From Daphnia carinata (lineage: Eukaryota): a stretch of DNA of 64,000 bases. The notes beneath the pieces were generated by a model. It ran no database searches and was not told the origin of the DNA. It saw only the letters and a list, made by a program, of their open reading frames with translations. Positions 1 to 59,560 of this stretch are shown in pieces. The translations under genes were made by a program, and so were the position numbers. Numbering within the stretch: position 1 is the stretch's first letter; each line of letters begins with the position of its first letter. The stretch spans positions 372,001 through 436,000 of the forward strand of contig NC_081333.1 in NCBI RefSeq assembly GCF_022539665.2, given 5' to 3'.

Positions 1-157
1 TATTTGCAAAATTCGTTTCTTTCATTGTCTGTGTTAGCTTTGTTCACACATTACATTAATCAATTTTTTTTTTGGCTTTGTTTTATTTGTTTTTGTCACA
101 TTTGATGGTAAGGTGACGGGTATTGGTTTATCGTTTATCTGTAAGCATTCTATTATT

Positions 158-222
158 ATCCAGGGATCGAACCCTGGATGTTCGGCATACCTCGCCGATG
201 CTCTACCAATGAGCCACGAATC
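158..222 (-). other. tRNA-like module (degenerate tRNA or SINE-head-like; no acceptor stem)
   Basis: The minus strand reads GTGGCTCATTGGTAGAGC (A-box/D arm), TCGGC-loop-GCCGA (anticodon-like stem) and GGTTCGATCCC (B-box/T arm). Confidence 0.7.
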
Positions 223-347
223 ATATGATTTTAAGTTGGCTTTTTTTTCTAGTCACTTGTGGACTTGCATTTATACTTAGAATAAAACTGAAATGCAATT
301 CTGCAATATACTCTTGTACATTATTCTACTTCATTTTTACACATCTA

Positions 348-408
348 CTGAGGTTTGAACCCAGGGTAACAGGTATCGCAGATAAAAGCTCTACCACAGA
401 GCTAAGAA
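348..408 (-). other. tRNA-like module, second type
   Basis: The minus strand reads TAGCTCTGTGGTAGAGC...CTGGGTTCAAACC (A-box- and B-box-like); similar to 5318-5375. Confidence 0.55.
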
Positions 409-512
409 CCTTATGGAAGCTATAGAAAGATAAACATATAGTTGTGAAAAACTGCATAAACATCCAAGACGATAACATATGATATGCGATAATAAAAAAT
501 TTAAATATATCT

Positions 513-575
513 CGTGGCTCAATGTTAGAGCATCGGCGTTGCACGCTGAATGTCTGGGGATCGGTTCCCATACGA
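513..575 (+). other. tRNA-like module
   Basis: GTGGCTCAATGTTAGAGC followed by a TCGGCG-TTGCA-CGCTGA stem and a decayed T arm; inverted paralog of 158-222 and 5050-5110. Confidence 0.6.
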
Positions 576-889
576 GTAAAACAAAATACAAAATTACTTC
601 ATAAAATATCCAGATTGTTCCTTGAATCTAAGTTGAACAATTCAAAGAGTGTAATAAATAATACTTACAGACAAACGATAAACCAATGGAAACAATGCTT
701 ACCATCAAAGGTGACAAAAACAATAAAGGTGAATTAAGCAAGCTAAATATAAAAAGTGTAACGTATGAACACAGCGAATACAGACAATGAAAGAAACGAA
801 TTTTGCAAATAATATTTTATAAAAAAAATTTTATTGACAATTCTCTGCACATTACAATTATTTTTGCAACTTTAAAAAGGCACAATAGC

Positions 890-1250
890 CCTTTCAAAAG
901 TTGCCGTCAACCCAGGCAGGGGGAGACACTGCCTTGTTGACCCACCGGGGAGATTACCCGGTGATTGGCTAAGAGAAGCCGGAAGAAGAGCTGAAGATTT
1001 GGAACATTTTTACAGGAGCGATTAACCTTTAGTTCGGATTTGTGGGCAGCCACATCACCCTCCGTGAACACACATCATCGGACGAAGCGGCACCCCACGT
1101 CCCCTTTCCGGCCAGAGCCCTCCAAACCTCGGTATATGTTGTTTTTATATATACCGTACAGTAGGGGCATGACCCCCTACGGGCTTATTATGAGTCAAGG
1201 GGAAACGGGGCTTCAGAAAAGAAGGGAGCCCAGATATGCACTTCAATTTT
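890..1250 (-). repeat. Copy 1 of a GC-rich, hairpin-rich repeated element (left arm of a large inverted repeat)
   Basis: Reverse complement of ~4370-4700. Shared blocks include GAAGTGCATATCTGGGCTCCCTTCTTTTCTG, AATAAGCCCGTAGGGGGTCATGCCCCTACTGT and CCGGCTTCTCTTAGCCA...CACCGGGTAATCTCCCCGGTG. Confidence 0.85.
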
Positions 1251-1259
1251 TTTAATATC

Positions 1260-2706
1260 AAATACCGTCTGGGGAATCCGAATTAAGTATAGCAATGTCA
1301 TGTCATCCATCCAATCAATACAATTTATTCAGTGTCTTGCCCCAACCAAGAATCTTTTCAGATCCAATGTTACTATTAACCTATATTGAGAAAAGAAAAA
1401 CAACACCGTTAAACACATCAATTGTTGATCATGGAACTTACATGACTCATAGATTCAACTTCTGGTGGAAGCTTGGGAAAGGACATACAAATTGCAGATT
1501 AACTTCATTGTATAAGGCTCTTGAATGATAAACTAGCACCTGTAGAATGTTGCATTGTTGATAGTTGTGTTCCCAGTACATGAAAATCCTTTCCTATTGG
1601 ATAAAATTTTTTTTGGTAGATAAGACCTGGTTGGCAAAAAGGAGGAGAAATTCTTCGTCATAAATTCAAAATTATTTGAAGAAAAATCCTTTCATACCTA
1701 AAGAGTCCATGTATGATGTTCATCTCTGCAATAGCAGCAAAATTAAAACATCTTTAGGGCCATTTAAGTACCCAGTTTCCCCAACACTCTGAACGTAAAG
1801 GACAAGTTGTTCTTTAGACAGAGAAGCAGAATTATTTGAGGCTTCTAGCTGTGACAGAACTATAAAGGATTGCTGTTGTACTGGATTCATTAACACAAGA
1901 TGGTACTTCTCATTAGGCAATTTGCATTACTCTATTAATTTACCTCACACCTTACGGTAATGCACTCTCAGTGTTTTTTCATCTGTAGGCTCACTCTTCC
2001 ATCCTGTAACACTTCCAGACTTGATTTGATCCCCCGTTAAAATCTGTGAATGCAAAATAATAGCATTAAAAATACTTTTTCGATAGACAAAAAACCGAAA
2101 AGTACCTAATCCATGTTTCATGTTGAACTTGTGCCATTTCTGGGTTTCTGTACCACACCCATTTTCGGCCCAAATACGTTCCCACAATTGTTCAGTTCCT
2201 TCACTGCATGAGCTTATTACTAACGATTCTTTTAGTGCAGCACTAACAGAATTTAAATTTAACACACTGTCATGTGGTGGACTGAATAACTAAGCAATAA
2301 ATAATTGTTTTTTAAAATTCTATACTTATTTTGAATTCTTATTTAAAAACTTTAGGTACCTGGCTGTGTTCGCCTAATGCCAACTCATCCTCACGTTCAG
2401 TTACAGATGAGTTTTGAAAAACCTCCTTCACTGTTTGGAAACTGTTCCGTTCCAATTTGTTCTTTTCCCCTAGCTGAGCTTGAAGACTCAAAATTTGAGC
2501 TACAAAACACGAATGAATAAAAGCAAATGAATAGAATCATTACGTGTTAGGCCTACGATCCTTAGCTTTGTTATCTAATATTTTGTGTTGTTCCAATAAC
2601 TGGGCCTGCAGCTTCATAATTTGATCTAATAAACAATAATTAATAATTGAAAACCAATATAATAATGTTTATACTTACCATTTTTTTGTTTTATTATCTT
2701 ATCCAT
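1260..2706 (-). pseudogene. Decayed multi-exon gene of unknown function with a coiled-coil-like N-terminus
   Basis: An ATG near 2706 and clean GT-AG introns join MDKIIKQKN|DQIMKLQAQLLEQHKILDNKAKD|PQILSLQAQLGEKNKLE. Downstream exon-like ORFs are at 1945-2265 and 1720-1920. In-frame stops and frameshifts are present. Confidence 0.4.
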
Positions 2707-2914
2707 TTTTCAATTGTTCCTCCAGCCACGCGTTGTTCTCCAGCCACGCTACTCAATTAACTGCTAATGGGATACAATTAACTGAAATTGCTTACATGCC
2801 TGTAATAACGAAACCGACTGATAGATGGCTACGGGTAGAAAAAAGAGAAAAAAGTGCGTTTTTTTTTTTTCCGCCATTTTTTTTTTTTTTTTATGTAAAA
2901 CGGATTGCCATAAA

Positions 2915-2945
2915 AAAACGGATTGCCATAATGGCAATCCGTTTT
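2915..2945. repeat. Perfect 15-bp inverted repeat with a 1-nt spacer, plus an extra direct half-site
   Basis: AAAACGGATTGCCAT-A-ATGGCAATCCGTTTT; the half-site AAAACGGATTGCCATA also occurs at 2897-2912. Confidence 0.95.
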
Positions 2946-3149
2946 ACCCCAAAAATATAAAAAAATATCGGCCTTTTTTTTGTTTCACTGCTTTCGCCAC
3001 CTCCCGGTCAGATTTGTAGGTAATTCTCTACATACCAAATTTTTCTGTTGCATCATGCTAGCGCAGTAGCGTACAGTACTTTGCGGTTGCCAAACGTCGT
3101 CAGGCTATTTCGTCATACTGTGGTTTCACCCCATCTGTCATTTGTACCA

Positions 3150-4372
3150 ATTGTAGATATTGTCCATAACAAGTCTTCATGTTTACATTCTTGCCAGTGG
3201 TGCTGATACTTTTTTTTATCACAACCGCTTGTTTCAGCTGTTCCAAGTGAAGCATTACTTATGCAAGTACTTAAAGAGGGCTGACCATTACAAAAGAAGA
3301 GCTCATCGCGGTATGTTATGAAATGAATAGATTTTTAAAGAAGGAAAACTTTAAACCTCCCCTATTCCTCATAGATGCTGTGATGGTATGTTTGCAAAAC
3401 TGGAAAAAATTCTGTGCTATGGTGGCCTTAAGTAGGTGCTCAACATTTTGAAAAATGTGAACAGCAAAAACAGTTGGTCAGAATTCCAAACGTCAAAAGT
3501 ACTTATTTCTGGAAAATTAGTTAATCTACGTCCTGATTTTCTGCTGTTCCATCAGTCACTATGCAGTGTGTTTGAACAATGAAAGCATTCTTGAATCAGA
3601 CTGCTTCAGTTTATATCGAAAATGTACTGCTTGTCATGCCCTGTGACCAACTTCACAGGACTATGTTGTAAGTTAGTATCACTTTACAAAGCCAAATAGG
3701 TGTAACAAAATGCAATTTTGTAAATTTTTTATACAGAATTATTTTACTGCTTTGTTTCATTGTACAGCAAATTTAGATTACATGCCTAGTACGAAAGAGA
3801 TCAAGTATATTACCGAAATTGGCAATTTCCCTTTGCGACATTCAAACTCCTCAGTCTGTCATTCTGATACAGGGGTCCTGAAAGAAGTTGGAACATTTTG
3901 AACCATCTCATCCAATAAGTCTGTCTCTTTTTTTGTGCCTGGAAACCCATGATTACAACTAATTAAAATTCCATTATTGTGATATTTGCATAGGTATTAG
4001 AAAATAGGTAGTCGCTTAATGATTAGTTTCTTCACTGCCCGTCAACTTACCACCCAAGCAAGCACTTTGTCTGTCAAACCATTAGCTGAATACAGTTAAT
4101 ACCAGTAGTTCACCAAAACAAGAGGTAAAGAAGGATTGCACCGATCCTTATTGAATATATATTGATAGGCAAACATTTAAAAATTGATTCATGTTTCGTT
4201 TTCTTTAAATAGGTTAAGAATCATACTGAATCAAAAGAGGTATCTAGTCGAACCAAATTTCATAATGATAACGGTTGGAAGCCCGAAGGAATTTTTGAAA
4301 AATGCTTCCTGCCCATTACCTTCAGTCGTTGCTGCGGCCCGAAAACAAAGAATTAAAAGTTATATAAATTGA
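3150..4372 (+). pseudogene. Possible decayed multi-exon gene, divergent from 1260-2706
   Basis: Intron-like segments (GTATGT ~3311 to CATAG ~3375; TTTAAATAG ~4211) separate exon-like sequence with many stops. No recognisable domain. Confidence 0.25.
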
Positions 4373-5110
4373 AGTGCATATCTGGGCTCCCTTCTTTTCT
4401 GTGGCCCCGTTTCCCTTAAATTTTTAATAAGCCCGTAGGGGGTCATGCCCCTACTGTGATCAGCAGTAAACGGTTGTGAGTGCGCTGTCCGGAAAGGGGA
4501 CGTGGGGGTCCCCATGGTTCGATGATATCATTGGAGGGCTGTGGGGCTACCCAAAAATCCGAATTAACGGTTAATCGCTCACGTAAAAGCTTGTCCGCAA
4601 CCTTCGCTCTTCTACCGGCTTCTCTTAGCCACGCACCGGGTAATCTCCCCGGTGAGTCAACTGAGGTAGTGTCTCCCCCTACCTTGGTTGACAGCAACTT
4701 CGAAATCGGCTATTTTGCCCTTTCAAAGTTGCAAGTCTTTAACTTGTGCCGAATATTGTCAATACAAATTCTTTAAAAAAAATTTACATTTGTGTCTTTT
4801 TTACTTGCTGTTGCTCTGTCATTTTGTGGACGTATACGTTATACTTTCAATTTTTATTCTGTTTCAATTTATGGGAGAATATTTCGTTGTTAGACGACTT
4901 CAATGTCTATGGAACGATGCACTTTAATCCCACTTCATGGAGATTCTACAACTTTATGAGCATTAATGATATTGAATTGTATACATGCATTATATTTCTA
5001 ATATTACATTTTGAGTTATGTATGTTTATTTAATTTCATTTTGACTCTCTAGGGGATTGAACCTTTAATTTGTAGCGTGCGACGCTGATGCTCAACCATA
5101 GAGCCATGAA
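4370..5110 (+). repeat. Copy 2 of the structured element with AT-rich tail and tRNA-like module (right arm; pairs with ~510-1250)
   Basis: Strong inverted match of 4370-4700 to 890-1250 and a weaker match beyond. The tRNA-like module at 5050-5110 (-) matches 513-575 (+): GCGTCGCACGCT versus GCGTTGCACGCT. Confidence 0.8.
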
Positions 5111-8779: not shown

Positions 8780-8850
8780 CAGTGCCGGTCCAGTTATAGA
8801 ACCGGCCTGTGCGCGGTTCTATAACTGAATGGTTCTATAACCGAGCAGCC
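8780..8850 (+). mobile_element. Solo or partial terminal repeat of the MITE family at 9084
   Basis: TA|CAGTGCCGGTCCA start, followed by the hairpin CAGTTATAGAACCG...CGGTTCTATAACTG (8791-8828). Confidence 0.7.
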
Positions 8851-9083
8851 GATCTCAGAGCCACCTATCGTCGATTCTTTCATCACACAGATTTTGACAG
8901 TATGTGAATGTAAAAGCGAATAGCACAGGGATAGTGCTGATCTCTATGCAACTACCCAGAATAGGGGGAAGGGGGTTCTTATATTAGAATTTAATACCTC
9001 AACCATTCCTGCATTATTTTACCAACAATAAGGTTCTACCACAAAGAGAATGCCCCATCAACGATTGGTCATTATATAAGATA

Positions 9084-9557
9084 CAGTGCCGGTCCACTTC
9101 TAGAAACCCTTAGCTATGGAACCGGCTCGGTTATCGAACCGATTTTTATTTCCCCTGTTTCAGCGCCCATAATTAATAAATGGAAAAAAACAAAACGACA
9201 CGAAAAGTGTCATTTTGTAATACAGTTATTTAAAAATTCTGATAACATTAAAAGGCAAAGAGAAAAGCAGCACGATAAGTCATTTGTTTTATTGTTTTCC
9301 GCCTGAATTCGTTTGGAAGGCTATTATTTTACGTAAAGTCATTAAGCCAATTTGTACTATTGTCTAAAATTGCTAAAACCAATTTCAATAACATGTGCTT
9401 GTACGTTTTAAAATGCGTAATCCGTACGTTCGAACCCAAAAATATGGATTTAGTTCAAAATACAGCCAATGGCGGCGCTGAAACACGGCAAGGAAAAATC
9501 GGTTCGATAACCGAGCTGGTTCTATAGCTAAGCGGTTCTATAAGTGGACCGGCACTG
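9084..9557. mobile_element. MITE, Tc1/mariner-type, about 474 bp with ~85-bp imperfect TIRs and TA flanks
   Basis: TA|CAGTGCCGGTCCACTT...CTCGGTTATCGAACCGATTTTT at the left end, and AAAAATCGGTTCGATAACCGAG...AAGTGGACCGGCACTG|TA at the right end. AT-rich non-coding interior. Confidence 0.9.
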
Positions 9558-9875
9558 TACCGATTCTTCTTTTAGTTCCATATGATTTCCAACGGTTGAG
9601 AAGTAAATTCTGTCGCTAACACATCATATTACAAATAAACTGTACGTAGGTTGCACACAAAAAAAAACAACAAACAAAAGTAACATTAAATTTCGAAGAA
9701 GTGTGCATCACCTATTAGCAAGGCTGAAAGACGAATGTTAAAGCATTTGTGCATTGAATTTGAGTTAATGAAACTGTTAGAAAAGAATTTCACGTGCGGC
9801 AGAAAAGGGACAGTAAAAACACGAAGCGGAAACGAACATGGTAAAAGGAAAACAAACAGAACGGGGAATTCTAGT

Positions 9876-12442
9876 CTAAAAGGATGAAAATACCTTTCGG
9901 TTGTTTAAGTTTTTGGAAGAAGAGCAGTTTTGTAACACAAGCTGACCATCAATCCCTTGAAGAGTTCTGAACGCCTCAAGTTGCTTCAGAGATATTCCTA
10001 CGGGCTCTTTTAAAATGATCCATGTTACAACTTCGTTGTAGGGAGGTGTTGTCAGCGATCCAAAATAGGTAAAGAAACAATTACGAGTTTCAGAGCCAGG
10101 AAGGAATAATTCGAGTGGGGAAGGCAAAAGAATTTCCTTGGATTGACCTTTCAGTAGACGACATCCTTCTATCACAGGGTGCAGAATGGCATTCTCGGTT
10201 TCTTGAACCTAATAAATAATAAAAATTTAAAAAGAATTAGCTAGAGAACTGAAATGTAGCCTTAAAAGATCTCCCTACGTGAAAGTGCCTACCTTTAGCA
10301 TTACAGTTAGAATAGCGAATCCATTACGATGGCTCTTTGCTTCTTGGAGGGAGTCAAAAACCTGATTCTGGTGAACAATATGCATTTCTGCCGCAAATTT
10401 CACGCCGTCTATAGTATGTTCACTTCCGTTTGCATCACATCCCCAGTGGAAATGGAGTTGAAGTAACTTATATCGACCATCAAGGGATCCACCAGTTATG
10501 TAAGGTACAGAGTCCAATTTTTCATTATCAGCCGAGAGTTTCACTAGAGATAAAAAAAATGGTGTTTAGTCAATAACGAGTAAAGATAAGGCACTATCAA
10601 CTGATACCTACCAGAATGACCATCATTATGTACCACTAGCGGGACATTGGAATCGTAGCCCCAGAATTTAAGTTCAGGGAAATTTTTACGAACAGCATTT
10701 TGTGAAAGAATTTCTATTGGTGACAGGTCAAGCCCCTCAGCTGCCGCCATGGCATCATCTGCCAATGCCGCATGAAACAGTACTGGCATCTCAGAAGACG
10801 AAACCCAAATAGCATGTATGCCTTAGGTGAATGTTGTTCCCTAAAAATATATTTTTACCTTGGGTGCATATGGACGGGTTATGGCATGACCGATTCGCAG
10901 GTTGAATTTTCCAAATATTGCATTGTTCATTGCGGCGATGGCATCATGCGCTGAGTTGCTGGAATTATATTCTACGAAAGCGTATCCCTCGACATTCTCT
11001 GGATTGGAACCCCGATATAACTGACAGAATCTAATCGTGCCAAATGCAACAAAAACACTATACAAAAAAAAAATAAAAAAATAAAAGAAGTAATGTGATA
11101 GACATTCGGATACTTTTAGGATTAGGTATTCTTCTCCATCCAATTGAGGAGATAAAATTAAGGGAGCTTAATGGAACATCCCTAAATAATTCAATACAAA
11201 ATACCTTCGTAAATCTGCTTCTGTTTTATCAGGATCCACTGAGGCGATGTAAATACCATTCCACTGCTTCGATGCTTGGATCATCCGATTAAGAGCTGGC
11301 TCTAAATGTACATCATTGTGTGCCCACTGCACCTGTGAAAGAATAATGTGTATCAGGCATTTATTTCTTTTGTGGGCTTCATTCTGATGGCCCTTCGCGA
11401 ATGTTCACAATATGCGTAAGATTATTTTTAATATACCGCTAGTTTTCCTACTTCAGCCACTATGCCATTCAACTGTTTCATAGCCAGTTGCGCGGCATCA
11501 ACGAGTTCAAACTGAACGTAGGCAAATCGATTGAACAGCAGATCAATTGTTTCAATATGGCCAAATGGACGAAAAATCTGCCGAATTTCTTTTTCACTCG
11601 ATATACCTTTGAATCCACTAACATGCAACCTTCCTCATGTGGATGATGTCCGGCATTAAAGTTTTTTAGAAATTTCTAAATGTATATTTATTTACCTTCT
11701 AAAAATAGCCTGGACTGGGAGGCCCTAAAAATAACTGAGTGTTAATAAGTTATATTGATAAAGACTGCACTGATTGAAACAAAAATTTTCCCCTACCTCA
11801 TCGTGTGGGATTCGGATTTGTGTCTCTGAAAGAGAATAATATGTAAATTTTTAAACATAAAACAAAAGACATGATTGTGGTTTGTCATAAACAGAACAAA
11901 ACAAAACATAAAATATAATGCAAATCGTCCACCCTTTCAAGATCAGACCAAGCCTACACAAACTATCATTTTTTAAATTTAATTAGGAATTAGTTTAGAA
12001 AAAAATCTACAATAAGCTTTGGTATCACGCATGAAGTGGTAATAGTAATAAACAATTATCCAATTAGTAAATTTATCTTGACAATGAAAAAGGGCTAGAC
12101 AGTTTCGCTATAAATATGAGATATGAAGCCACCAACAGCCAAGTAAGATCAAGTACCATCCTAATATTTTAATACATCAACATCATCAATATGTCAAAGA
12201 AAGTTTTTCTTAACATAAGAGTTGTATAACTATACATACCAGTGACCTCTTGAAGCTCTGGAGTGGTTTTAACTTCACTATCTGGAGCAGATTGCGATTG
12301 CTTGGCGCCTAAATCCAATTTAGCCTGATTTAAGAAAAAACAACTCTGTTCAGTTGAAAAGTATTCTGGTGAATGACCAGTGAATGTGGCATTGAAGCCG
12401 CGAGAAAATGAATAGTTTTACCTTTTTGTGTTTATGAGGCAT
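9876..12442 (-). CDS. Predicted PUF60/half-pint-like tandem RRM - alpha-carbonic anhydrase fusion protein (481 aa, 10 exons)
   Basis: Exons 12442-12422, 12324-12240, 11825-11797, 11724-11696, 11629-11437, 11332-11205, 11057-10859, 10789-10612, 10543-10293 and 10208-9876 are all GT-AG, phase-compatible and stop-free (1446 nt). RRM1: LHVSGF...FAYVQFELVDAAQLAMKQLNG. RRM2: IYIASVDPD...SVFVAFG...GYAFVEY...DAIAAMN...LRIGHAITRP. CA: SPIEI, NDGHS, QLHFHWG, GSEH, EMHIVH, GSLTTPP. The domains are clear; the fusion depends on the 69-nt intron 10858-10790. Confidence 0.7.
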
Positions 12443-12589
12443 TTTCAGGTCTGATGTTTTAGCTAAGGACAAACGAAGAATATATTTATAACTGAAGAAG
12501 ACTTGTAAAAACACCTATATTGTTGTCACGACTATCGACTAACGACACCGGCAAGCGAATTTCGAAATGACACCAACGATGGAACCATT

Positions 12590-12600
12590 CAGTGTTGCCA
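12590..12600 (-). promoter_or_regulatory. TGGCAACACTG candidate core-promoter motif upstream of the RRM-CA gene (repeated in each tandem copy)
   Basis: CAGTGTTGCCA lies ~150 bp upstream of the ATG. I recall this motif as promoter-associated in arthropods; function here is inferred. Confidence 0.35.
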
Positions 12601-14225
12601 CATTATCATTTTAGATGCTATAGTTGTTACAATGTAGCAGCACCGAACACTTTACAATTCAGGCCATCTTTTCAGTCGTTTCACCGGCCATGTTAACAAT
12701 TCGCTTTGTTATTACTAATTAGAAAGGCCGACGAGTCTTTAGGACAAAGCTTGCTTCAGTGGCGTTCCACGGTAACTTGGCTACACCTAACTAAGGATCC
12801 CTTACGTTTTCTCAGGATTCTAAACAGATAAAGAAAAAAGGGTTGTCATTATACCACAGCAACAAGTCCTCCTTTCCCTCGGTTGTTTCAAGCCAGGAAC
12901 CATGTTTCCATGGCTCCCATGTTAGACCCGTGCTCCCCGTGCACTTTAACGACCTGAGCGATATCGTACAATGTGCGGCCGCACATCGTATTCCATCAGC
13001 GAAAACCACCAAGGGAAGACATTGGGCTAGCTTCACTTTGCTAGTCTATATGAGAGGCCTCTTAGACAGGGATCTGACGTATCAAGGCGTAGGATACCGA
13101 CCTAGCTAATGTCTAAACTCATAGCCGAAGGACTTGTTTACGGGAAACAAGCCAGCTAATTTTTTTGAAGTTAAGGGACATGGTTCTTAATGCCCATCAG
13201 ACCTCGTGTGCACAAGACCTACCAGACCCTCTTCTTCTGCCTATACGACAACCCCACTTTACATTTTGCTTTACCATCTGTTTTATACTGTTCCAGTTAT
13301 GGCTCAAAGCCATAAACAGAGTTAGCAAACGTTTTTCCGAGTCCAATTTGGTCAATAACACTTCACCAGGGATCACGTATGGATAGTGAGAAAATCTAAT
13401 CAAATTCGAACAAAGCTCATATAAAACTTCTAAATAAAACCAAATTGCAAAATCTATACAACCATTTTCATTGTTTTTACTTTCCTTACAATAGAAGCAG
13501 GAATAGCTCTCGGCTTAGTAGAAGACATCGCAGGTGGCTTGCCGCTAGAGGGCCATCCTAAAACTATCATTAAACCTTTTCCTGGCTTCATCCAACGGTG
13601 TTTGCAAATCGTACTCGAGTCCTGTAGAATTCATAGTCACAATCGGCCGAAACATACGCTAATAGAATTGTACAACCTTAGCAACGGTGAAAACGACGAG
13701 GTTGTTCATAATACAGTAAAGTTCCGTGCATCGTCATAGTAATGATGACGAGGTGACACAACCCTTTACGATGAAAATGCCTTGCTGCACCAAACAGATT
13801 GATTATCGTTCCCGGCCACATCAATTGTCCTCTGCTTTGTCAATGCCTCATGTTCTATAGATCATATTACCTAAGCATGTATTACCTTAGATATTCAAAA
13901 GACTTTGGAATTTGACTTGTGACTTACTGAATGACTGACTGGAGACTTGAAATTTCCAATAAATCGCTAGAAACGTAGAATGGCTAAGTGCGTTGCAGTC
14001 ACGTTTTACCAGTATCGTAATATTTCGATGCTTGCATGTTATGCATGCTATGTCGGCTTCGTCATTTCAATCGACATATTCTTAAAAAACAGGAAATGTC
14101 CCTCCCGAGTGCGAAGCCTTCTTCTCTTTACAGGTAACTTAACGGAAACAACAGCCGCTGATCCTGTTTCAGGTGTGAAATGTATCAATCCAATTACGTA
14201 CATTTTTTTAAAGAATCATGTGCTA

Positions 14226-16039
14226 TCACCTCGAGCCACAGCGACAGAATGTTTGGTACCTGGTTTTAAGTTCAGGGAAATTTTTACGAACAGCATTTTG
14301 TGAAAGAATTTCTATTGGTGACAGGTCAAGCCCCTCAGCTGCCGCCATGGCATCATCTGCCAATGCCGCATGAAACAGTACTGGCATCTCAGAAGACGAA
14401 ACCCAAATAGCATGTATGCCTTAGGTGAATGTTGTTCCCTAAAAATATATTTTTACCTTAGGTGCATATGGACGGGTTATGGCATGACCGATTCGCAGGT
14501 TGAATTTTCCAAATATTGCATTGTTCATTGCGGCGATGGCATCATGCGCTGAGTTGCTGGAATTATATTCTACGAAAGCGTATCCCTCGACATTCTCTGG
14601 ATTGGAACCCCGATATAACTGACAGAATCTAATCGTGCCAAATGCAACAAAAACACTATACAAAAAAAAAATAAAAAATAAAAGAAGTAATGTGATAGAC
14701 ATTCGGATACTTTTAGGATTAGGTATTCTTCTCCATCCAATTGAGGAGATAAAATTAAGGGAGCTTAATGGAACATCCCTAAATAATTCAATACAAAATA
14801 CCTTCGTAAATCTGCTTCTGTTTTATCAGGATCCACTGAGGCGATGTAAATACCATTCCACTGCTTCGATGCTTGGATCATCCGATTAAGAGCTGGCTCT
14901 AAATGTACATCATTGTGTGCCCACTGCACCTGTGAAAGAATAATGTGTATCAGGCATTTATTTCTTTTGTGGGCTTCATTCTGATGGCCCTTCGCGAATG
15001 TTCACAATATGCGTAAGATTATTTTTAATATACCGCTAGTTTTCCTACTTCAGCCACTATGCCATTCAACTGTTTCATAGCCAGTTGCGCGGCATCAACG
15101 AGTTCAAACTGAACGTAGGCAAATCGATTGAACAGCAGATCAATTGTTTCAATATGGCCAAATGGACGAAAAATCTGCCGAATTTCTTTTTCACTCGATA
15201 TACCTTTGAATCCACTAACATGCAACCTTCCTCATGTGGATGATGTCCGGCATTAAAGTTTTTTAGAAATTTCTAAATGTATATTTATTTACCTTCTAAA
15301 AATAGCCTGGACTGGGAGGCCCTAAAAATAACTGAGTGTTAATAAGTTATATTGATAAAGACTGCACTGATTGAAACAAAAATTTTCCCCTACCTCATCG
15401 TGTGGGATTCGGATTTGTGTCTCTGAAAGAGAATAATATGTAAATTTTTAAACATAAAACAAAAGACATGATTGTGGTTTGTCATAAACAGAACAAAACA
15501 AAACATAAAATATAATGCAAATCGTCCACCCTTTCAAGATCAGACCAAGCCTACACAAACTATCATTTTTTAAATTTAATTAGGAATTAGTTTAGAAAAA
15601 AATCTACAATAAGCTTTGGTATCACGCATGAAGTGGTAATAGTAATAAACAATTATCCAATTAGTAAATTTATCTTGACAATGAAAAAGGGCTAGACAGT
15701 TTCGCTATAAATATGAGATATGAAGCCACCAACAGCCAAGTAAGATCAAGTACCATCCTAATATTTTAATACATCAACATCATCAATATGTCAAAGAAAG
15801 TTTTTCTTAACATAAGAGTTGTATAACTATACATACCAGTGACCTCTTGAAGCTCTGGAGTGGTTTTAACTTCACTATCTGGAGCAGATTGCGATTGCTT
15901 GGCGCCTAAATCCAATTTAGCCTGATTTAAGAAAAAACAACTCTGTTCAGTTGAAAAGTATTCTGGTGAATGACCAGTGAATGTGGCATTGAAGCCGCGA
16001 GAAAATGAATAGTTTTACCTTTTTGTGTTTATGAGGCAT
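14226..16039 (-). CDS. Truncated duplicate: two PUF60-like RRMs plus a short CA fragment and a novel tail (about 281 aa)
   Basis: Same first exons as 9876-12442. Exon 8 crosses the tandem junction: ...KNFPELK-TRYQTFCRCGSR*. Confidence 0.55.
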
Positions 16040-17822
16040 TTTCAGGTCTGATGTTTTAGCTAAGGACAAACGAAGAATATATTTATAACTGAAGAAGACT
16101 TGTAAAAACACCTATATTGTTGTCACGACTATCGACTAACGACACCGGCAAGCGAATTTCGAAATGACACCAACGATGGAACCATTCAGTGTTGCCACAT
16201 TATCATTTTAGATGCTATAGTTGTTACAATGTAGCAGCACCGAACACTTTACAATTCAGGCCATCTTTTCAGTCGTTTCACCGGCCATGTTAACAATTCG
16301 CTTTGTTATTACTAATTAGAAAGGCCGACGAGTCTTTAGGACAAAGCTTGCTTCAGTGGCGTTCCACGGTAACTTGGCTACACCTAACTAAGGATCCCTT
16401 ACGTTTTCTCAGGATTCTAAACAGATAAAGAAAAAAGGGTTGTCATTATACCACAGCAACAAGTCCTCCTTTCCCTCGGTTGTTTCAAGCCAGGAACCAT
16501 GTTTCCATGGCTCCCATGTTAGACCCGTGCTCCCCGTGCACTTTAACGACCTGAGCGATATCGTACAATGTGCGGCCGCACATCGTATTCCATCAGCGAA
16601 AACCACCAAGGGAAGACATTGGGCTAGCTTCACTTTGCTAGTCTATATGAGAGGCCTCTTAGACAGGGATCTGACGTATCAAGGCGTAGGATACCGACCT
16701 AGCTAATGTCTAAACTCATAGCCGAAGGACTTGTTTACGGGAAACAAGCCAGCTAATTTTTTTGAAGTTAAGGGACATGGTTCTTAATGCCCATCAGACC
16801 TCGTGTGCACAAGACCTACCAGACCCTCTTCTTCTGCCTATACGACAACCCCACTTTACATTTTGCTTTACCATCTGTTTTATACTGTTCCAGTTATGGC
16901 TCAAAGCCATAAACAGAGTTAGCAAACGTTTTTCCGAGTCCAATTTGGTCAATAACACTTCACCAGGGATCACGTATGGATAGTGAGAAAATCTAATCAA
17001 ATTCGAACAAAGCTCATATAAAACTTCTAAATAAAACCAAATTGCAAAATCTATACAACCATTTTCATTGTTTTTACTTTCCTTACAATAGAAGCAGGAA
17101 TAGCTCTCGGCTTAGTAGAAGACATCGCAGGTGGCTTGCCGCTAGAGGGCCATCCTAAAACTATCATTAAACCTTTTCCTGGCTTCATCCAACGGTGTTT
17201 GCAAATCGTACTCGAGTCCTGTAGAATTCATAGTCACAATCGGCCGAAACATACGCTAATAGAATTGTACAACCTTAGCAACGGTGAAAACGACGAGGTT
17301 GTTCATAATACAGTAAAGTTCCGTGCATCGTCATAGTAATGATGACGAGGTGACACAACCCTTTACGATGAAAATGCCTTGCTGCACCAAACAGATTGAT
17401 TATCGTTCCCGGCCACATCAATTGTCCTCTGCTTTGTCAATGCCTCATGTTCTATAGATCATATTACCTAAGCATGTATTACCTTAGATATTCAAAAGAC
17501 TTTGGAATTTGACTTGTGACTTACTGAATGACTGACTGGAGACTTGAAATTTCCAATAAATCGCTAGAAACGTAGAATGGCTAAGTGCGTTGCAGTCACG
17601 TTTTACCAGTATCGTAATATTTCGATGCTTGCATGTTATGCATGCTATGTCGGCTTCGTCATTTCAATCGACATATTCTTAAAAAACAGGAAATGTCCCT
17701 CCCGAGTGCGAAGCCTTCTTCTCTTTACAGGTAACTTAACGGAAACAACAGCCGCTGATCCTGTTTCAGGTGTGAAATGTATCAATCCAATTACGTACAT
17801 TTTTTTAAAGAATCATGTGCTA

Positions 17823-19636
17823 TCACCTCGAGCCACAGCGACAGAATGTTTGGTACCTGGTTTTAAGTTCAGGGAAATTTTTACGAACAGCATTTTGTGA
17901 AAGAATTTCTATTGGTGACAGGTCAAGCCCCTCAGCTGCCGCCATGGCATCATCTGCCAATGCCGCATGAAACAGTACTGGCATCTCAGAAGACGAAACC
18001 CAAATAGCATGTATGCCTTAGGTGAATGTTGTTCCCTAAAAATATATTTTTACCTTAGGTGCATATGGACGGGTTATGGCATGACCGATTCGCAGGTTGA
18101 ATTTTCCAAATATTGCATTGTTCATTGCGGCGATGGCATCATGCGCTGAGTTGCTGGAATTATATTCTACGAAAGCGTATCCCTCGACATTCTCTGGATT
18201 GGAACCCCGATATAACTGACAGAATCTAATCGTGCCAAATGCAACAAAAACACTATACAAAAAAAAAATAAAAAATAAAAGAAGTAATGTGATAGACATT
18301 CGGATACTTTTAGGATTAGGTATTCTTCTCCATCCAATTGAGGAGATAAAATTAAGGGAGCTTAATGGAACATCCCTAAATAATTCAATACAAAATACCT
18401 TCGTAAATCTGCTTCTGTTTTATCAGGATCCACTGAGGCGATGTAAATACCATTCCACTGCTTCGATGCTTGGATCATCCGATTAAGAGCTGGCTCTAAA
18501 TGTACATCATTGTGTGCCCACTGCACCTGTGAAAGAATAATGTGTATCAGGCATTTATTTCTTTTGTGGGCTTCATTCTGATGGCCCTTCGCGAATGTTC
18601 ACAATATGCGTAAGATTATTTTTAATATACCGCTAGTTTTCCTACTTCAGCCACTATGCCATTCAACTGTTTCATAGCCAGTTGCGCGGCATCAACGAGT
18701 TCAAACTGAACGTAGGCAAATCGATTGAACAGCAGATCAATTGTTTCAATATGGCCAAATGGACGAAAAATCTGCCGAATTTCTTTTTCACTCGATATAC
18801 CTTTGAATCCACTAACATGCAACCTTCCTCATGTGGATGATGTCTGGCATTAAAGTTTTTTATAAATTTCTAAATGTATATTTATTTACCTTCTAAAAAT
18901 AGCCTGGACTGGGAGGCCCTAAAAATAACTGAGTGTTAATAAGTTATATTGATAAAGACTGCACTGATTGAAACAAAAATTTTCCCCTACCTCATCGTGT
19001 GGGATTCGGATTTGTGTCTCTGAAAGAGAATAATATGTAAATTTTTAAACATAAAACAAAAGACATGATTGTGGTTTGTCATAAACAGAACAAAACAAAA
19101 CATAAAATATAATGCAAATCGTCCACCCTTTCAAGATCAGACCAAGCCTACACAAACTATCATTTTTTAAATTTAATTAGGAATTAGTTTAGAAAAAAAT
19201 CTACAATAAGCTTTGGTATCACGCATGAAGTGGTAATAGTAATAAACAATTATCCAATTAGTAAATTTATCTTGACAATGAAAAAGGGCTAGACAGTTTC
19301 GCTATAAATATGAGATATGAAGCCACCAACAGCCAAGTAAGATCAAGTACCATCCTAATATTTTAATACATCAACATCATCAATATGTCAAAGAAAGTTT
19401 TTCTTAACATAAGAGTTGTATAAATATACATACCAGTGACCTCTTGAAGCTCTGGAGTGGTTTTAACTTCACTATCTGGAGCAGATTGCGATTGCTTGGC
19501 GCCTAAATCCAATTTAGCCTGATTTAAGAAAAAACAACTCTGTTCAGTTGAAAAGTATTCTGGTGAATGACCAGTGAATGTGGCATTGAAGCCGCGAGAA
19601 AATGAATAGTTTTACCTTTTTGTGTTTATGAGGCAT
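17823..19636 (-). CDS. Second truncated RRM-only duplicate (about 281 aa)
   Basis: Same structure and junction-derived tail as 14226-16039; the differences seen are intronic. Confidence 0.55.
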
Positions 19637-19999
19637 TTTCAGGTCTGATGTTTTAGCTAAGGACAAACGAAGAATATATTTATAACTGAAGAAGACTTGT
19701 AAAAACACCTATATTGTTGTCACGACTATCGACTAACGACACCGGCAAGCGAATTTCGAAATGACACCAACGATGGAACCATTCAGTGTTGCCACATTAT
19801 CATTTTAGATGCTATAGTTGTTACAATGTAGCAGCACCGAACACTTTACAATTCAGGCCATCTTTTCAGTCGTTTCACCGGCCATGTTAACAATTCGCTT
19901 TGTTATTACTAATTAGAAAGGCCGACGAGTCTTTAGGACAAAGCTTGCTTCAGTGGCGTTCCACGGTAACTTGGCTACACCTAACTAAGGATCCCTTAC

Positions 20000-22510
20000 G
20001 TTTTCTCAGGATTCTAAACAGATAAAGAAAAAAGGGTTGTCATTATACCACAGCAACAAGTCCTCCTTTCCCTCGGTTGTTTCAAGCCAGGAACCATGTT
20101 TCCATGGCTCCCATGTTAGACCCGTGCTCCCCGTGCACTTTAACGACCTGAGCGATATCGTACAATGTGCGGCCGCACATCGTATTCCATCAGCGAAAAC
20201 CACCAAGGGAAGACATTGGGCTAGCTTCACTTTGCTAGTCTATATGAGAGGCCTCTTAGACAGGGATCTGACGTATCAAGGCGTAGGATACCGACCTAGC
20301 TAATGTCTAAACTCATAGCCGAAGGACTTGTTTACGGGAAACAAGCCAGCTAATTTTTTTGAAGTTAAGGGACATGGTTCTTAATGCCCATCAGACCTCG
20401 TGTGCACAAGACCTACCAGACCCTCTTCTTCTGCCTATACGACAACCCCACTTTACATTTTGCTTTACCATCTGTTTTATACTGTTCCAGTTATGGCTCA
20501 AAGCCATAAACAGAGTTAGCAAACGTTTTTCCGAGTCCAATTTGGTCAATAACACTTCACCAGGGATCACGTATGGATAGTGAGAAAATCTAATCAAATT
20601 CGAACAAAGCTCATATAAAACTTCTAAATAAAACCAAATTGCAAAATCTATACAACCATTTTCATTGTTTTTACTTTCCTTACAATAGAAGCAGGAATAG
20701 CTCTCGGCTTAGTAGAAGACATCGCAGGTGGCTTGCCGCTAGAGGGCCATCCTAAAACTATCATTAAACCTTTTCCTGGCTTCATCCAACGGTGTTTGCA
20801 AATCGTACTCGAGTCCTGTAGAATTCATAGTCACAATCGGCCGAAACATACGCTAATAGAATTGTACAACCTTAGCAACGGTGAAAACGACGAGGTTGTT
20901 CATAATACAGTAAAGTTCCGTGCATCGTCATAGTAATGATGACGAGGTGACACAACCCTTTACGATGAAAATGCCTTGCTGCACCAAACAGATTGATTAT
21001 CGTTCCCGGCCACATCAATTGTCCTCTGCTTTGTCAATGCCTCATGTTCTATAGATCATATTACCTAAGCATGTATTACCTTAGATATTCAAAAGACTTT
21101 GGAATTTGACTTGTGACTTACTGAATGACTGACTGGAGACTTGAAATTTCCAATAAATCGCTAGAAACGTAGAATGGCTAAGTGCGTTGCAGTCACGTTT
21201 TACCAGTATCGTAATATTTCGATGCTTGCATGTTATGCATGCTATGTCGGCTTCGTCATTTCAATCGACATGTTCTTAAAAAACAGGAAATATCCCTCCG
21301 AGTGCGAAGCCTTCTTCTCTTTACAGGTAACTTAACGGAAACAACAGCCGCTGATCCTGTTTCAGGTGTGAAATGTATCAATCCAATTACGTACATTTTT
21401 TTAAAGAATCATGTGCTATCACCTCGAGCCACAGCGACAGAATGTTTGGTACCGCCCGTCTATCTAGATATTTCGAAAATTCAATTAACAGCCGCATCGG
21501 TTGGAAACAAGCAATCTTGTCCAGGATGAATTTATCTCGGCCATAAAAAATGGGGCAAAGCAAAAGCCGTGTGCTATTTGTTTCCTTTCGGGTCAATATC
21601 TTCTGGAATTATAAGAAATGATAATCCTTTTGAAGAAATACTGAAGTGAGAAAATTTACATTCTGGTAGAGCGAAATCTCCATTTCCTTTGCCAATACTA
21701 TTTTCAAATCAGGTGTACATTGTGCAGTTTCTTTCTTTGCCTGTAAAAGAATTTGCAATGACATCCAAATTAGTTTAAGGAATTATGTTAGAATTAAGAA
21801 GAAAGAATGCTACTTTGGGCCAAGTCAATAAATATCTTCTCACCATTGTAATGTGAACCAATTAACAGTTAATAATTTTCCACCATGGAACCAAACTGCA
21901 ACTAGCACGGTCACAAAATGCCCAATTGCTGGTAATACCTTTAATTGCACATAGATAATATTATTATTGAAGTACGAATTCTCTAAAATTCTTTTACCTG
22001 AATATCATAGTGGTCTGCCACCAGGAGTCTTTCAAACTCGACTAATCTCTGTTTGCTTCTGATCAAGAGTTTAAACAACCACATGTGTTTATTTTGAGCA
22101 GGATAACAAGGATTCCTAGATCTAGCCCTTTAACTTGGAACAGATAATGTTATTTTTCATTTGACTTATAATCCTAAACACAAGTTCAAGTCCAAGTGCA
22201 ATTGCCTGGGGAGTTAATCATTTGAACACCGAGTGAACTGATAGTAGTCCTCAAATCGTCTTATGACTAAGACTTTTGGTGACCACCATTCACATGAACC
22301 TGAATGTTTAAAGCCAAAAACATTAGGTGAATATATTTACAATTCAAAAATCGAAACCTTATAGTCACCTAAAATTCAGAGTACAAAGAACATTACAGTT
22401 TGTGAAGTCAGCATCCAAAGAATCAAAGGAGATTTTGCAATCCATTTTAAACCCATAGAAAGTTTTGAGAGCCGTCCAACAGGTAGTTTATCACGGACTC
22501 CATTACGGCA
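20000..22510 (-). pseudogene. Possible decayed multi-exon gene cut by the right breakpoint of the duplication
   Basis: Exon-like minus-strand segments with GT/AG borders (e.g. AKKETAQCTPDLKIVLAKEMEISLYQN near 21650-21740; ORF 21387-21596 crossing 21453; ORFs 20391-20597 and 20006-20230). Stops are present and no homology is recognised. Confidence 0.25.
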
Positions 22511-23686
22511 TGTTCGGATTACACTTGTTTAGTTCAATCCTGTTTACATTCAATCTGTTGAAAAGAAATAATCGGTTAAGCAAAATAACTGTACATAACA
22601 ATAAGGATTTAATTTTTGAGCCCGCCAAAACTATCACTCTTCGATTACATATCGATAGCACGATGCATACGGTTATTCCAGCGGAATGTCCAAATCTATG
22701 GCGAGTTGGCAGACTGAAATATTTTTCTTTTGAAACAATTTGTTTTAAAAATCAAGATAATTCCGATAATAGATTGAGAGTGATGAACTTTTCCAAGAAG
22801 CAGGAAAACGATTGGAAGCTGACAGGTTAGAAAATGGAATGTACTTCGTGGAAAACCAGCCCAAAATAAGACAAATCGGAAGAGCAAGGGAAAAAGACAA
22901 TCTCCAACACAGAAATTGACGACGTGACGTTCAAAACGGCAAGATCGTTTCAAGGTGGACACTAAAAACCCTTCCCAAACTAAAGAGAAAAGAGAAATTA
23001 AGGTTCGTCGATATGCGCGGGAAAATGCAAAATGGCCGACATCATCATCGAGATTTTTCGTGGAAGTTTCGCATTATGTAAATAAGCCGGCCTTGAATTT
23101 CACTACACACGCATTATCTTTGTCATCTGTCTTTGTTTAACAAAGGAGTAATGGTAGGGTTAAACTAGACAAACTTATTGCGACTATCAACGTTGATGAC
23201 ATTCGAATGCAATTCCGCATCAAACGAAAATCCGCCCCCTACACACACACAAATTTCAGCTATCTGAGTAGACAAGGTCGACAAAAGGTTGAAGTCTGTG
23301 TTGAAAAAAAATGATGGGGAAAGGTTTTTTCTTAATAACACGCAAATTTCACTCTTTTTACTTGCCAATTCCCCCCCATTCCCCTTAACTCTATATTACA
23401 GAACATTTCCCTCAAGGCTACAAGATGAAAGGGCTAACAAAACAGCAGACGATTGGCTGGCAATTTCGTCATTTCACTTCCCTCGTGTATGTTAGATGGC
23501 CCTTCCCCCCTTTTAAAACAAAATTTACCGTTGTATTTTGTGTCACCTTTCCGTAGAGAAGATTGTGCAAGAAAGCAAATTGCAGTTTTAGTTGCGTTTA
23601 ATCCCTGGACAAGTACAGGCCTGCATTTGGCTGACTGTCTTCTTATACATTTCCGGATTTTTGCTCAGTGCCTGTTTCCCCCCGCC

Positions 23687-56415: not shown

Positions 56416-57062
56416 TTAGTATCTGCGATACGGCGCCAAGAATCGTCTGTACACATCTTCGTCCGACTCGTCCGAATCCGAATGATAGTACGTCGTTTTC
56501 CTGCCCGTCTTGGCCGTCCTCCTGTAGACTTCGTCCGACTCACGAGAGTCTGACCCGTAGTAGTAGTAAGGCGACGTCGGTTTAATAACGGGCTGGATGG
56601 GTTTGTTGATCTTGGCGAATCTTCGATACACTTCGTCGGATTCATCGGACTCGATCGAATCGTATTTCCATTTGTATTGCGGCTTCACTGCTGCTGGGCG
56701 GTCCCAGCTGTTGGCGAACGGGTTGTAAGGTTTGATGAACGAGTTGAAGGATTTGAACGAATCGTCATCGATCGAGTTGATCGAGTGGATTGAATTCTTC
56801 TTGGCAGGGACGGTCTTGTAACGATTGGAAGATGGCCGATAGTAGTACGTGTCCTGCGCAGCCACGTAGTTATCCGTCACGACAACCACAGCGCAAACGA
56901 CGAGCTGTGATCAACCCCGCACAAAAAAAGAAATTAACATAAGAATTAGAAAATAGCGGACGCGATCAGAACAGAATGAAATGCAACTTTCACTTGTATG
57001 CACCCAAGACTTTTCTTTTTTTTTTTTTTTCTTTTGTTTACCATAAAAGAGCAGCGTAACAT
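56416..57062 (-). CDS. Small secreted protein with three DSxESDE-VYRR repeats, paralog 2
   Basis: A 21-nt first exon (MLRCSFM) splices to LVVCAVVVVTDNYVAAQDTYYYR...WDRPAAV...DSIESDESDEVYRR...DSRESDEVYRR...DSDESDEDVYRR. TATAAAA near 57130. Confidence 0.85.
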
Positions 57063-59001: not shown

Positions 59002-59560
59002 CTACCACCAGCGTCTGTTTTCACGAGATTCGAACGAATCATTTTCATCGGAATGGCGCACGTTCCATCTGGTTTGTTGTTGTCGGACGGGAACAGCTGC
59101 TGGACGGTTCCACGCGTTGCTGCCCTGAAAGTTGTTAGTGACGGAGTGCCTCTGAGCCCGCGGTAAAACGGAGCGATGACGGAACCTGGACTCGGACGAT
59201 TCGATCGAATTATCTTCGATGGAGTTGTCGAAATTGATCCTCCATCTGTTCTGTTGTTGCGCAGCTGCCGGCCAGCCCCATGCGTTGTTGCTTCTGGCCA
59301 CTACCGGATTGAAGGCGGAGAACGAGGTGTGTGGCTTGTGAACATTGCGGCTGACGGACGGAGTGCTCTGCCTGAAACGGCTGGCCGACGCAGCATTACG
59401 GAAATAGTACGTGTTTTGCGCTCCGACGCCGCTATCCATCAGCATCACGGCCACACTTGAGACGACGAGCTTTAAAAAAAAACAAAAAAGATGATAAGTG
59501 AATTAAATGTTTTTAAAATAAAAATTAATATTAGTTTACCAAGGCAGAGTAGCTCAACAT
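59002..59560 (-). CDS. Small secreted Arg/Ser/Asn-rich protein, paralog 3
   Basis: A 21-nt first exon (MLSYSAL) splices to LVVSSVAVMLMDSGVGAQNTYYFRN...WGWPAAA...SIESSESR...WNRPAAV...DSFESRENRRWW. TATAAAA near 59635. Confidence 0.82.

What the first reader, a model, noticed from the sequence alone, without database searches (positions are those of the whole stretch)
9876..12442. Chimeric gene: PUF60-like tandem RRMs fused in frame to a catalytically complete alpha-carbonic anhydrase
Seen: ten GT-AG exons join with compatible phases into a stop-free 481-aa frame. The 69-nt intron 10858-10790 links ...HAITRPYAPK to MPVLFHAALADDAMAAAEGLDLSPIEI. The CA part keeps three zinc-ligand histidines (HFH, EMH), GHS (His64 position), GSEH and GSLTTPP, but lacks a signal peptide and the usual N-terminal W-x-Y...W segment. 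Known: RRM1, the linker and RRM2 align by eye with the splicing factor PUF60/half pint, which has an Ala-rich linker after RRM2 and a C-terminal UHM. Inference: the Ala-rich stretch sharing exon 8 with the CA start is PUF60-derived, so CA replaced the UHM. This would give an RNA-tethered or nuclear (MPHKHKKAK) CO2/pH enzyme. I know of no described RRM-CA protein. Caveats: the linking acceptor is a weaker GAG, and intron retention gives RRM-only ...KVKIYF*.
Basis: partly seen in the sequence, partly recalled or inferred. Interest (0 to 1): 0.9.

Follow-up and report, generated by a model that had tools for sequence, protein, structure and literature searches.

The report
Water-flea splicing-factor/carbonic-anhydrase chimeric gene
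A water-flea gene joins the two RNA-recognition domains of a fast-evolving copy of the splicing factor PUF60 to a carbonic anhydrase with an intact zinc site, likely making an intracellular, possibly nuclear CO2/pH enzyme; Daphnia magna databases hold it as one protein, but in this genome the splice site that joins the halves is likely damaged.

Summary
The ten-exon, 481-aa, stop-free RRM-RRM-alpha-CA frame is confirmed. The window's exons match proteins NCBI assigns to Daphnia carinata at 100% identity. NCBI splits the locus there into a 233-aa PUF60-like and a 253-aa CA2-like protein. Five named D. magna records hold the same architecture as one 486-490-aa protein. No other species with it was found, and no paper describing it.

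D. magna has A-S-S-S-E before MPVLF. The original acceptor was therefore likely a TAG 15 nt upstream, now TGG. No RNA reads could be laid.

The CA keeps its zinc triad, His64, Glu106 and Thr199, and shows signs of purifying selection (p=0.004). It has lost its N-terminal arm, its disulfide and the QSP and RPxQ motifs. The RNA-binding face of RRM1 is altered. The locus lies in a threefold 3.6-kb tandem array whose extra copies truncate the CA.

Verdict: a real, apparently undescribed chimeric gene. Whether this genome makes the fusion is open (about 40%).

The parts
12422..12442 (-). Exon 1 (start codon, basic N-terminus). A TATAAA lies at 12490.
   Evidence: the same residues open the 233-aa protein P0121
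12240..12324 (-). Exon 2. With exon 1 it forms KKAKLDL, an NLS-like motif kept in both species; it resembles the KYPRLDL stretch of the Daphnia PUF60 N-terminus (by eye).
11797..11825 (-). Exon 3
11696..11724 (-). Exon 4
11437..11629 (-). Exon 5: RRM1 (RNP2 Tyr replaced by His; 7-residue deletion in the beta2-beta3 loop)
   Evidence: Pfam PF00076 E 1e-10; alignment to human PUF60
11205..11332 (-). Exon 6: inter-RRM linker helix and start of RRM2
10859..11057 (-). Exon 7: rest of RRM2, ending at a phase-0 donor
   Evidence: PF00076 E 1e-9
10790..10858 (-). It holds an in-frame stop at 10843-10841, a branch-like CTAA at 10826, the inferred lost acceptor (TGG, 10807-10805) and 15 nt reading VSSSE that are coding in D. 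magna.
10612..10789 (-). Exon 8: Ala-rich leader (about 20 aa, predicted helix) joined without an intron to the CA start, with His64 at its end. A competing out-of-frame CAG acceptor lies at 10783.
10293..10543 (-). Exon 9: zinc ligands H318, H320, H342 and E329 (model numbering)
   Evidence: PF00194 E 4e-26
9876..10208 (-). Exon 10: T424/T425 gate, Cys203 position is Tyr, RPxQ motif lost, stop; no GPI or membrane tail
   Evidence: PF00194 E 9e-21
14265..16039 (-). Tandem copy 2: the whole RRM half plus exon 8 up to FPELK; CA truncated
17862..19636 (-). Tandem copy 3: same truncation
10667..21453 (.). Three-unit tandem array (about 3.6 kb per unit; 2, 8 and 6 differences between unit pairs) with the same 4-base filler at both junctions

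Best explanation
The locus is a chimeric gene in which a fast-evolving PUF60 copy, cut after RRM2, runs into an alpha-carbonic anhydrase with an intact zinc site inside exon 8, and it likely makes an intracellular, probably nuclear CO2-hydrating enzyme whose PUF60 half would serve as import signal and docking module. Shown: the architecture, the intact zinc, His64, Glu106 and Thr199 residues, the loss of signal peptide, disulfide and UHM, and the fused 486-490-aa records in D. magna. Inferred: the fusion arose at DNA level after duplication of both parents (intact PUF60 lies on another contig). The Ala-rich helix likely fills the place of the CA N-terminal arm. Catalysis is likely slower than in CA II (Asp62, no Trp5/Tyr7 arm). 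RNA binding is likely weak or changed. In this genome the original acceptor of intron 7 is likely lost, so the 481-aa protein is made only to the extent that the next AG (GAG, in frame) is used (about 40%); otherwise the output is a 233-aa RRM-only protein.
For: Five of the 13 members of the P0002 cluster are named D. magna proteins of 486-490 aa with both domains, from three accession series (KAK, XP, KZS), and all five share the junction STAIASSSE-MPVLF. The CA has no start of its own: Pfam's CA match begins at profile position 11 inside exon 8, and no exon for the CA N-arm or a signal peptide was found between the halves. Window-versus-D. magna differences fall in 7 of 100 conserved CA columns against 31 of 153 variable ones (Fisher p=0.004; at a stricter cut 4 of 59 against 34 of 194, p=0.059). 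The CA model has pLDDT 92 and matches human CA II at Z 33, rmsd 2.4 over 241 residues. Canonical 614-615-aa PUF60 is intact on another contig in both species. KKAKLDL is kept in both. The GAG is the first AG after the lost site and lies about 35 nt from a branch-like CTAA. The window lineage shows no excess of derived changes (RRM 9 against 5, p=0.42; CA 10 against 8, p=0.81).
Against: NCBI annotates the identical window proteins as two genes, the first ending in the retained intron. None of the 8 Logan fragments in the cluster crosses an exon junction. GAG is the only such acceptor among nine introns, and an out-of-frame CAG lies 7 nt downstream. The in-frame position of the GAG is no evidence of selection, since it is simply the old Glu codon. 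RRM differences do not avoid PUF60-conserved columns (21 of 112 against 15 of 62, p=0.44), and RRM1 is only 74% identical between the two species while PUF60 RRM1-2 is 175 of 175. The window CA matches 46 of 59 consensus columns; the median of 77 other CAs is 54 and only 1 of 77 scores as low. D. magna genomic DNA could not be read, so the former TAG is inferred from protein. Localisation, activity and RNA binding are untested.
Confidence: 0.6

Rival explanations
1. The fusion is real in D. magna but has split in this genome. With the acceptor lost, transcripts keep intron 7 or use the out-of-frame CAG, giving three copies of a 233-aa RRM-only protein; the CA is silent, decaying or translated alone from the internal Met as a 253-aa enzyme. 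This differs from the best explanation only in what this genome makes.
For: NCBI's split annotation, with four accessions for the same 233-aa protein. TGG stands in all three copies. The tandem array triples the RRM half and truncates the CA. The window departs from three more CA consensus columns than D. magna (46 against 49 of 59) and has lost RRM1 R187 and P188 equivalents that D. magna keeps.
Against: All CA exons are open and spliceable, relative rates are equal, there is no AATAAA or ATTAAA in intron 7 or exon 8, and an in-frame AG is available.
Confidence: 0.5
2. The RRMs are passengers. The PUF60 half gave only a promoter, a start codon and a nuclear signal, and the selected function is an intracellular CA.
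For: RRM1 has His for FIR Tyr115, a deleted beta2-beta3 loop and changed R187/S189 equivalents; in FIR only RRM1 binds nucleic acid. There is no sign of constraint at PUF60-conserved columns (p=0.44).
Against: Both RRMs keep open frames, Pfam scores far above the cut-off (83-89 bits) and 74-83% identity between the species. Fast change could also reflect new specificity. This genome has amplified exactly the RRM half.
Confidence: 0.3
3. The CA domain is a folded but nearly inactive scaffold or pH sensor, in the way CA-related domains of receptor phosphatases are, and modulates an RNA-binding regulator.
For: Gln28, Arg246, Gln249, the N-arm Trp and the disulfide are lost, and Asn62 is Asp, in both species.
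Against: CA-related proteins are defined by loss of zinc or active-site residues (PMC4393933, section 3.1); here all are kept in both species.
Confidence: 0.2
4. Two neighbouring but independent genes that gene predictors merged in D. magna and that the first reader merged here.
For: NCBI splits them in the matching species. No RNA evidence was seen directly.
Against: Only 69 nt separate the halves. The CA lacks its own N-terminal arm and first exon. Five D. magna records from three accession series agree on one junction, and RefSeq lists it with alternative isoforms.
Confidence: 0.07

Closest known systems
PUF60 / FIR / half pint (Daphnia orthologue P0370, 614 aa)
   Same: Tandem RRM1-linker helix-RRM2, 41% identical; Ala-rich stretch after RRM2; similar basic motif near the N-terminus; 6 Daphnia-specific residues shared against 4 consensus ones among 24 such columns.
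   Different: No UHM and no long low-complexity middle; RRM1 RNA face altered; 74-83% identity between two species against 100% for PUF60 RRM1-2; fused to a CA.
Alpha-carbonic anhydrases (PF00194; human CA II; Daphnia CA1-CA7)
   Same: Fold (Z 33, rmsd 2.4 over 241 residues), zinc triad, His64, Gln92, Glu106, Thr199/200.
   Different: N-arm replaced; QSP and RPxQ motifs broken; no signal peptide, disulfide or GPI tail; long unresolved branch, parent paralogue not identified.
D. magna LOC116919181 / OUZ56_006224 and _006233 / KZS16118 (database records only)
   Same: Orthologous RRM-RRM-CA protein, 74-86% identical by region.
   Different: Has five more residues at the junction and is annotated as one protein; named only 'carbonic anhydrase' or 'uncharacterized'.
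Other CA domain fusions (receptor tyrosine phosphatase gamma, seen) and young chimeric genes such as Drosophila jingwei and Sdic (recalled, no call)
   Same: A CA domain reused in a multidomain protein; a new gene built from parts of duplicated parents.
   Different: Those CA domains are extracellular and, as recalled, non-catalytic; none is joined to RNA-recognition motifs.

Membership tests
alpha-carbonic anhydrase (catalytic) | Three zinc-ligand histidines (94, 96, 119) | tested here: met
   H318, H320, H342 in both species
alpha-carbonic anhydrase (catalytic) | His64, Gln92, Glu106, Thr199/Thr200 (list from PMC4393933 section 3.1) | tested here: met
   H286, Q316, E329, T424, T425
alpha-carbonic anhydrase (catalytic) | Alpha-CA fold and Pfam PF00194 above cut-off | tested here: met
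   212 bits, profile 11-254; pLDDT 92, Z 33
alpha-carbonic anhydrase (catalytic) | Conserved structural motifs QSPI and N-RP-QPL; N-terminal Trp arm | tested here: not met
   Gln to Leu, Arg to Ser, Gln to Lys, Trp to Leu in both species
alpha-carbonic anhydrase (catalytic) | CO2 hydration activity | not testable with these tools
   needs an assay
extracellular (secreted/GPI) alpha-CA | Signal peptide and Cys23-Cys203 disulfide | tested here: not met
   both Cys positions replaced; no hydrophobic N-terminus in the sequence (read by eye, no predictor run)
cytosolic/mitochondrial alpha-CA clade | Descent from the intracellular clade | tested here: inconclusive
   falls outside it in both trees, but the AU test does not reject the grouping (p 0.48); no named Daphnia cytosolic CA was in the set
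PUF60/FIR/half pint | Tandem RRM1-RRM2 closest to PUF60 | tested here: met
PUF60/FIR/half pint | C-terminal UHM (third RRM) | tested here: not met
   2 RRM stretches against 3 in P0370; no UHM match in the window
PUF60/FIR/half pint | RRM1 nucleic-acid contacts (FIR R113, Y115, F157, R187, S189; PMC10229228) | tested here: not met
   R kept, Y to H, F to Y, R to W (window) or R (D. magna), S to H or D; mapped by counting along the alignments
PUF60/FIR/half pint | Being the species' orthologue | tested here: not met
   an intact 614-615-aa PUF60 exists on another contig; this is a derived paralogue
PUF60/FIR/half pint | Poly(U) binding and splicing activity | not testable with these tools
   needs an assay

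The most novel reading that the evidence does not exclude
Some Daphnia evolved an RNA-tethered nuclear carbonic anhydrase: a PUF60-derived RRM pair with new specificity carries an active CA to particular transcripts or spliceosomes and couples local CO2/pH to RNA processing. D. magna keeps the fusion; the window's lineage tunes the ratio of fusion to RRM-only protein through a weakened acceptor and extra RRM-only copies.
Probability: 0.15. Interest if true: 0.85.

Novelty: new variant of a known kind. Interest (0 to 1): 0.55.

Why it matters
No RRM-carbonic anhydrase protein was found in the literature searched or in any organism other than these two Daphnia. If the enzyme is active and nuclear, it offers a direct way to ask what a CA does next to RNA, in D. 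magna, a standard laboratory species. The locus also shows three steps of gene evolution side by side: fusion of two duplicated parents, likely loss of the joining splice site in one lineage, and tandem amplification of one half. The base at 10862 marks copy 1 three nucleotides from the donor, so existing RNA-seq could settle the splice question.

Tried and rejected
No whole genome is held for the window. The look-up of sequencing runs listed no RNA holder; that is no evidence either way, and no reads could be laid. The metagenome scan with the D. magna protein gave 10 loci of 29-35% identity to the CA part only, none a relative of the fusion. The single-sequence fold of the whole fusion was unusable (pLDDT 38), so nothing is claimed about how the domains pack; complex prediction was not used. 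The ESM Atlas gave no usable hit. Earlier findings of the scan: none returned. Trees did not identify either parent. In the CA trees the fusion is a long branch, weakly beside an insect extracellular clade in the 81-row quick tree (support 85) and unresolved in the 26-row careful tree. In the RRM tree (22 rows; 3 rows dropped because a motif did not match) the branch is saturated and grouping with Daphnia PUF60 is neither shown nor rejected (p-AU 0.53). The control for the shared-residue count did not set Daphnia PUF60 apart (net +1, tied with other rows). A CA origin of the Ala-rich leader was considered: it scores negative against 63 CA N-arms, no better than shuffles (216 of 300); a PUF60 origin scores positive but not significantly (27 of 300 against Daphnia PUF60, 40 of 300 against 112 PUF60s). 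The alternative 3' end of D. magna isoform X2 was not found downstream in the window. An assembly artefact for the tandem array was considered and thought unlikely, since the junction holds four bases found in neither parent flank and the units differ at 2-8 positions; copy number is unverified. Literature: searches returned 0 papers; others returned listings with no RRM-CA protein; 'RRM', 'RNA recognition' and 'fusion' occur 0 times in the main text of three Daphnia or arthropod CA papers, and 'RRM' 0 times in one supplementary file. Subscription journals and bioRxiv supplements were not visible.

Full report
Observation. Joining ten minus-strand exons between 12442 and 9876 through nine GT-AG introns gives 481 codons and one terminal stop. 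Intron 7 (10858-10790, 69 nt) ends in GAG; the other acceptors are three CAG, four TAG and one AAG. Pfam places RRM_1 in exons 5 and 7 and Carb_anhydrase in exons 9 and 10 above cut-off, and weakly in exon 8.

Organism and relatives. The last exon is 100% identical to a 253-aa 'carbonic anhydrase 2-like' and exon 7 to a 233-aa 'PUF60-like' protein, both named Daphnia carinata by NCBI and both on a contig of the same length. The 233-aa protein is the intron-retaining product; the 253-aa protein starts at the first Met of exon 8. The next hit in both searches is a 487-aa D. magna protein carrying both Pfam domains. Its cluster has 13 members: 5 named D. magna proteins of 486-490 aa from three accession series and 8 Logan fragments of 68-99 aa. 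All five full-length records share one junction; none of the fragments crosses an exon boundary. No other fused protein appeared: 1 of 120 listed hits carries an RRM, 1 of 120 carries a CA domain, one search found 2 hits among 9 candidates, and among the 282 proteins held after the search of 1.84 billion representatives (13,562 hits, best 150 listed) only the five D. magna records match both halves. These searches need shared words or list only the top hits, so absence elsewhere is a weak result. Both species are placed in subgenus Ctenodaphnia (PMC9820869, passage). That RefSeq isoform sets and this UniRef accession block reflect transcript data is recalled, not checked.

The junction. D. magna has TRP-STAI-ASSSE-MPVLF. 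The window has TRP-YAPK, the donor, and before MPVLF the frame reads TGG followed by V-S-S-S-E, in all three copies. The simplest reading is that the original phase-0 acceptor was a TAG at 10807-10805, now TGG, and that the next 15 nt were coding. A branch-like CTAA at 10826 suits that site. A CAG 7 nt further would give a 250-aa frameshifted product, and retention gives 233 aa. That CAG usually outcompetes a nearby GAG is recalled. No RNA run was listed, so I put the chance that this genome makes the 481-aa protein in quantity at about 40%.

Tandem array. The region 10667-21453 is three 3.6-kb units differing at 2, 8 and 6 positions by pair. Each unit holds 1.8 kb of upstream DNA, the RRM half and the first part of exon 8; only the unit nearest 9876 continues into the rest of the CA. 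If spliced at GAG, copies 2 and 3 stop 12 residues after FPELK. Both junctions carry the same four-base filler, which suggests one duplication followed by unequal crossing-over (inference). The differences leave the 233-aa protein unchanged, which fits the four accessions NCBI lists for it.

RRM half. The best solved-structure matches are PUF60/FIR (E 6e-30; next family 1e-17), and the two best BLAST scores for the D. magna half among the proteins fetched are Daphnia PUF60s. Canonical PUF60 is intact in both species on another contig and in four other Daphnia, so this is a derived copy. It evolves fast: RRM1 56 of 76 and linker-RRM2 76 of 92 identical between the two species, against 175 of 175 for PUF60. 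Differences do not avoid PUF60-conserved columns (p=0.44). In FIR only RRM1 binds nucleic acid, through R113, Y115, F157, R187 and S189, and the RRM2 surface is occluded (PMC10229228, passages). Counting along the alignments, the fusion keeps the first Arg, has His for Tyr115, Tyr for Phe157, lacks seven loop residues, and has Trp/His (window) or Arg/Asp (D. magna) at 187/189. RNA binding is therefore uncertain. KKAKLDL is kept in both species and fits a classical nuclear signal pattern (recalled). The Ala-rich leader resembles the PUF60 segment after RRM2 and not CA N-arms, but order-specific similarity is not significant (27 of 300 shuffles). The RRM tree is saturated and uninformative.

CA half. 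His64, Gln92, the zinc triad, Glu106 and Thr199/200, the residues listed as defining in PMC4393933 (section 3.1), are all present in both species (CA II numbering recalled and checked). Of 59 columns conserved in at least 75% of 77 other CAs, the window matches 46 and D. magna 49 (median of the others 54). Shared losses include the N-arm Trp, both disulfide cysteines, Gln28, Arg246 and Gln249. Asn62 is Asp; Tyr7 and Asn62 shape the proton-transfer water network, and N62D favours the outward His64 conformer in CA II (PMC6032174, passages). Between-species differences avoid conserved columns (7 of 100 against 31 of 153, p=0.004; stricter cut p=0.059), and CA identity (196 of 231) is near that of an ordinary Daphnia CA pair (204 of 230). 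Neither lineage shows an excess of derived changes. The model built on 76 CAs has pLDDT 92, with the leader as a lower-confidence helix (55-76), and matches CA II at Z 33, rmsd 2.4 over 241 residues, the leader aligning over the N-arm region; the input alignment may bias that placement. The parent paralogue is unresolved.

Mechanism. Most likely, duplicates of PUF60 and of a CA were joined in frame inside exon 8. The PUF60 half supplied start, basic signal and RRM pair in place of the CA's own N-terminus; loss of the disulfide fits life inside the cell. The product would be an intracellular, probably nuclear CA of reduced speed, docked by the RRM pair to RNA-protein particles or partner proteins. 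The residues and architecture are shown; activity, location and docking are inferred. Rivals are fission in this genome (0.5, compatible with a real fusion in D. magna), passenger RRMs (0.3), an inactive CA scaffold (0.2) and annotation merging (0.07); they overlap and do not sum to one.

Known or new. The fused protein is already in databases for D. magna under uninformative names. Searches for the combination or the accessions gave 0 papers or unrelated listings, and three CA surveys do not mention an RRM: PMC4393933 (passages, sections 3.1 and 3.2), PMC2689847 (passages) and PMC13367328 (passages and one supplementary file). Subscription journals were not searched. I rate it a new variant of a known kind: a lineage-restricted chimeric gene with an apparently undescribed domain pair, interest 0.55.

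Noticed in passing
window 20000-22600, minus strand: Short exon-like open frames suggest an unnamed gene just upstream; the array starts inside it at 21453, so its 3' part is copied into each unit. No credible Pfam hit for the pieces tested.
   Followed up: partly
window 23754-25152, plus strand: BTB domain (E 7e-20) followed by a weak homeodomain-like match below cut-off: a likely BTB transcription factor.
   Followed up: partly
window 9082-9559: 86-base inverted repeat, 89.5% identical, about 300 bases past the CA stop; looks like a small non-autonomous transposon. A similar end sequence is near 8780-8850.
   Followed up: no
window 1-4781: Two diverged inverted repeats (815-1255 with 4360-4781; 1-158 with 652-811), about 76% identical; likely old transposon remains.
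   Followed up: no
window 26392-47231: Open frames resemble, from memory and untested, a missing-in-metastasis-like protein, a puromycin-sensitive aminopeptidase, phosphoenolpyruvate carboxykinase and a C1q-domain protein.
   Followed up: no
window 56416-59502: Two low-complexity, probably secreted proteins with repeated Ser/Asp/Glu and Tyr/Arg motifs.
   Followed up: no
window 11630-11695: Intron 4 ends in AAG with a poor pyrimidine tract (0.48), yet the annotated proteins of both species use it; weak acceptors are tolerated in this gene.
   Followed up: partly
proteins P0002 and P0122: One D. magna assembly holds two fused copies with nearby locus tags, 97% identical, so the locus is duplicated in that species too, there with the CA whole.
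   Followed up: no
proteins P0174 and P0284: Another D. magna CA pair, nested among extracellular Daphnia CAs, has also lost both disulfide cysteines.
   Followed up: no
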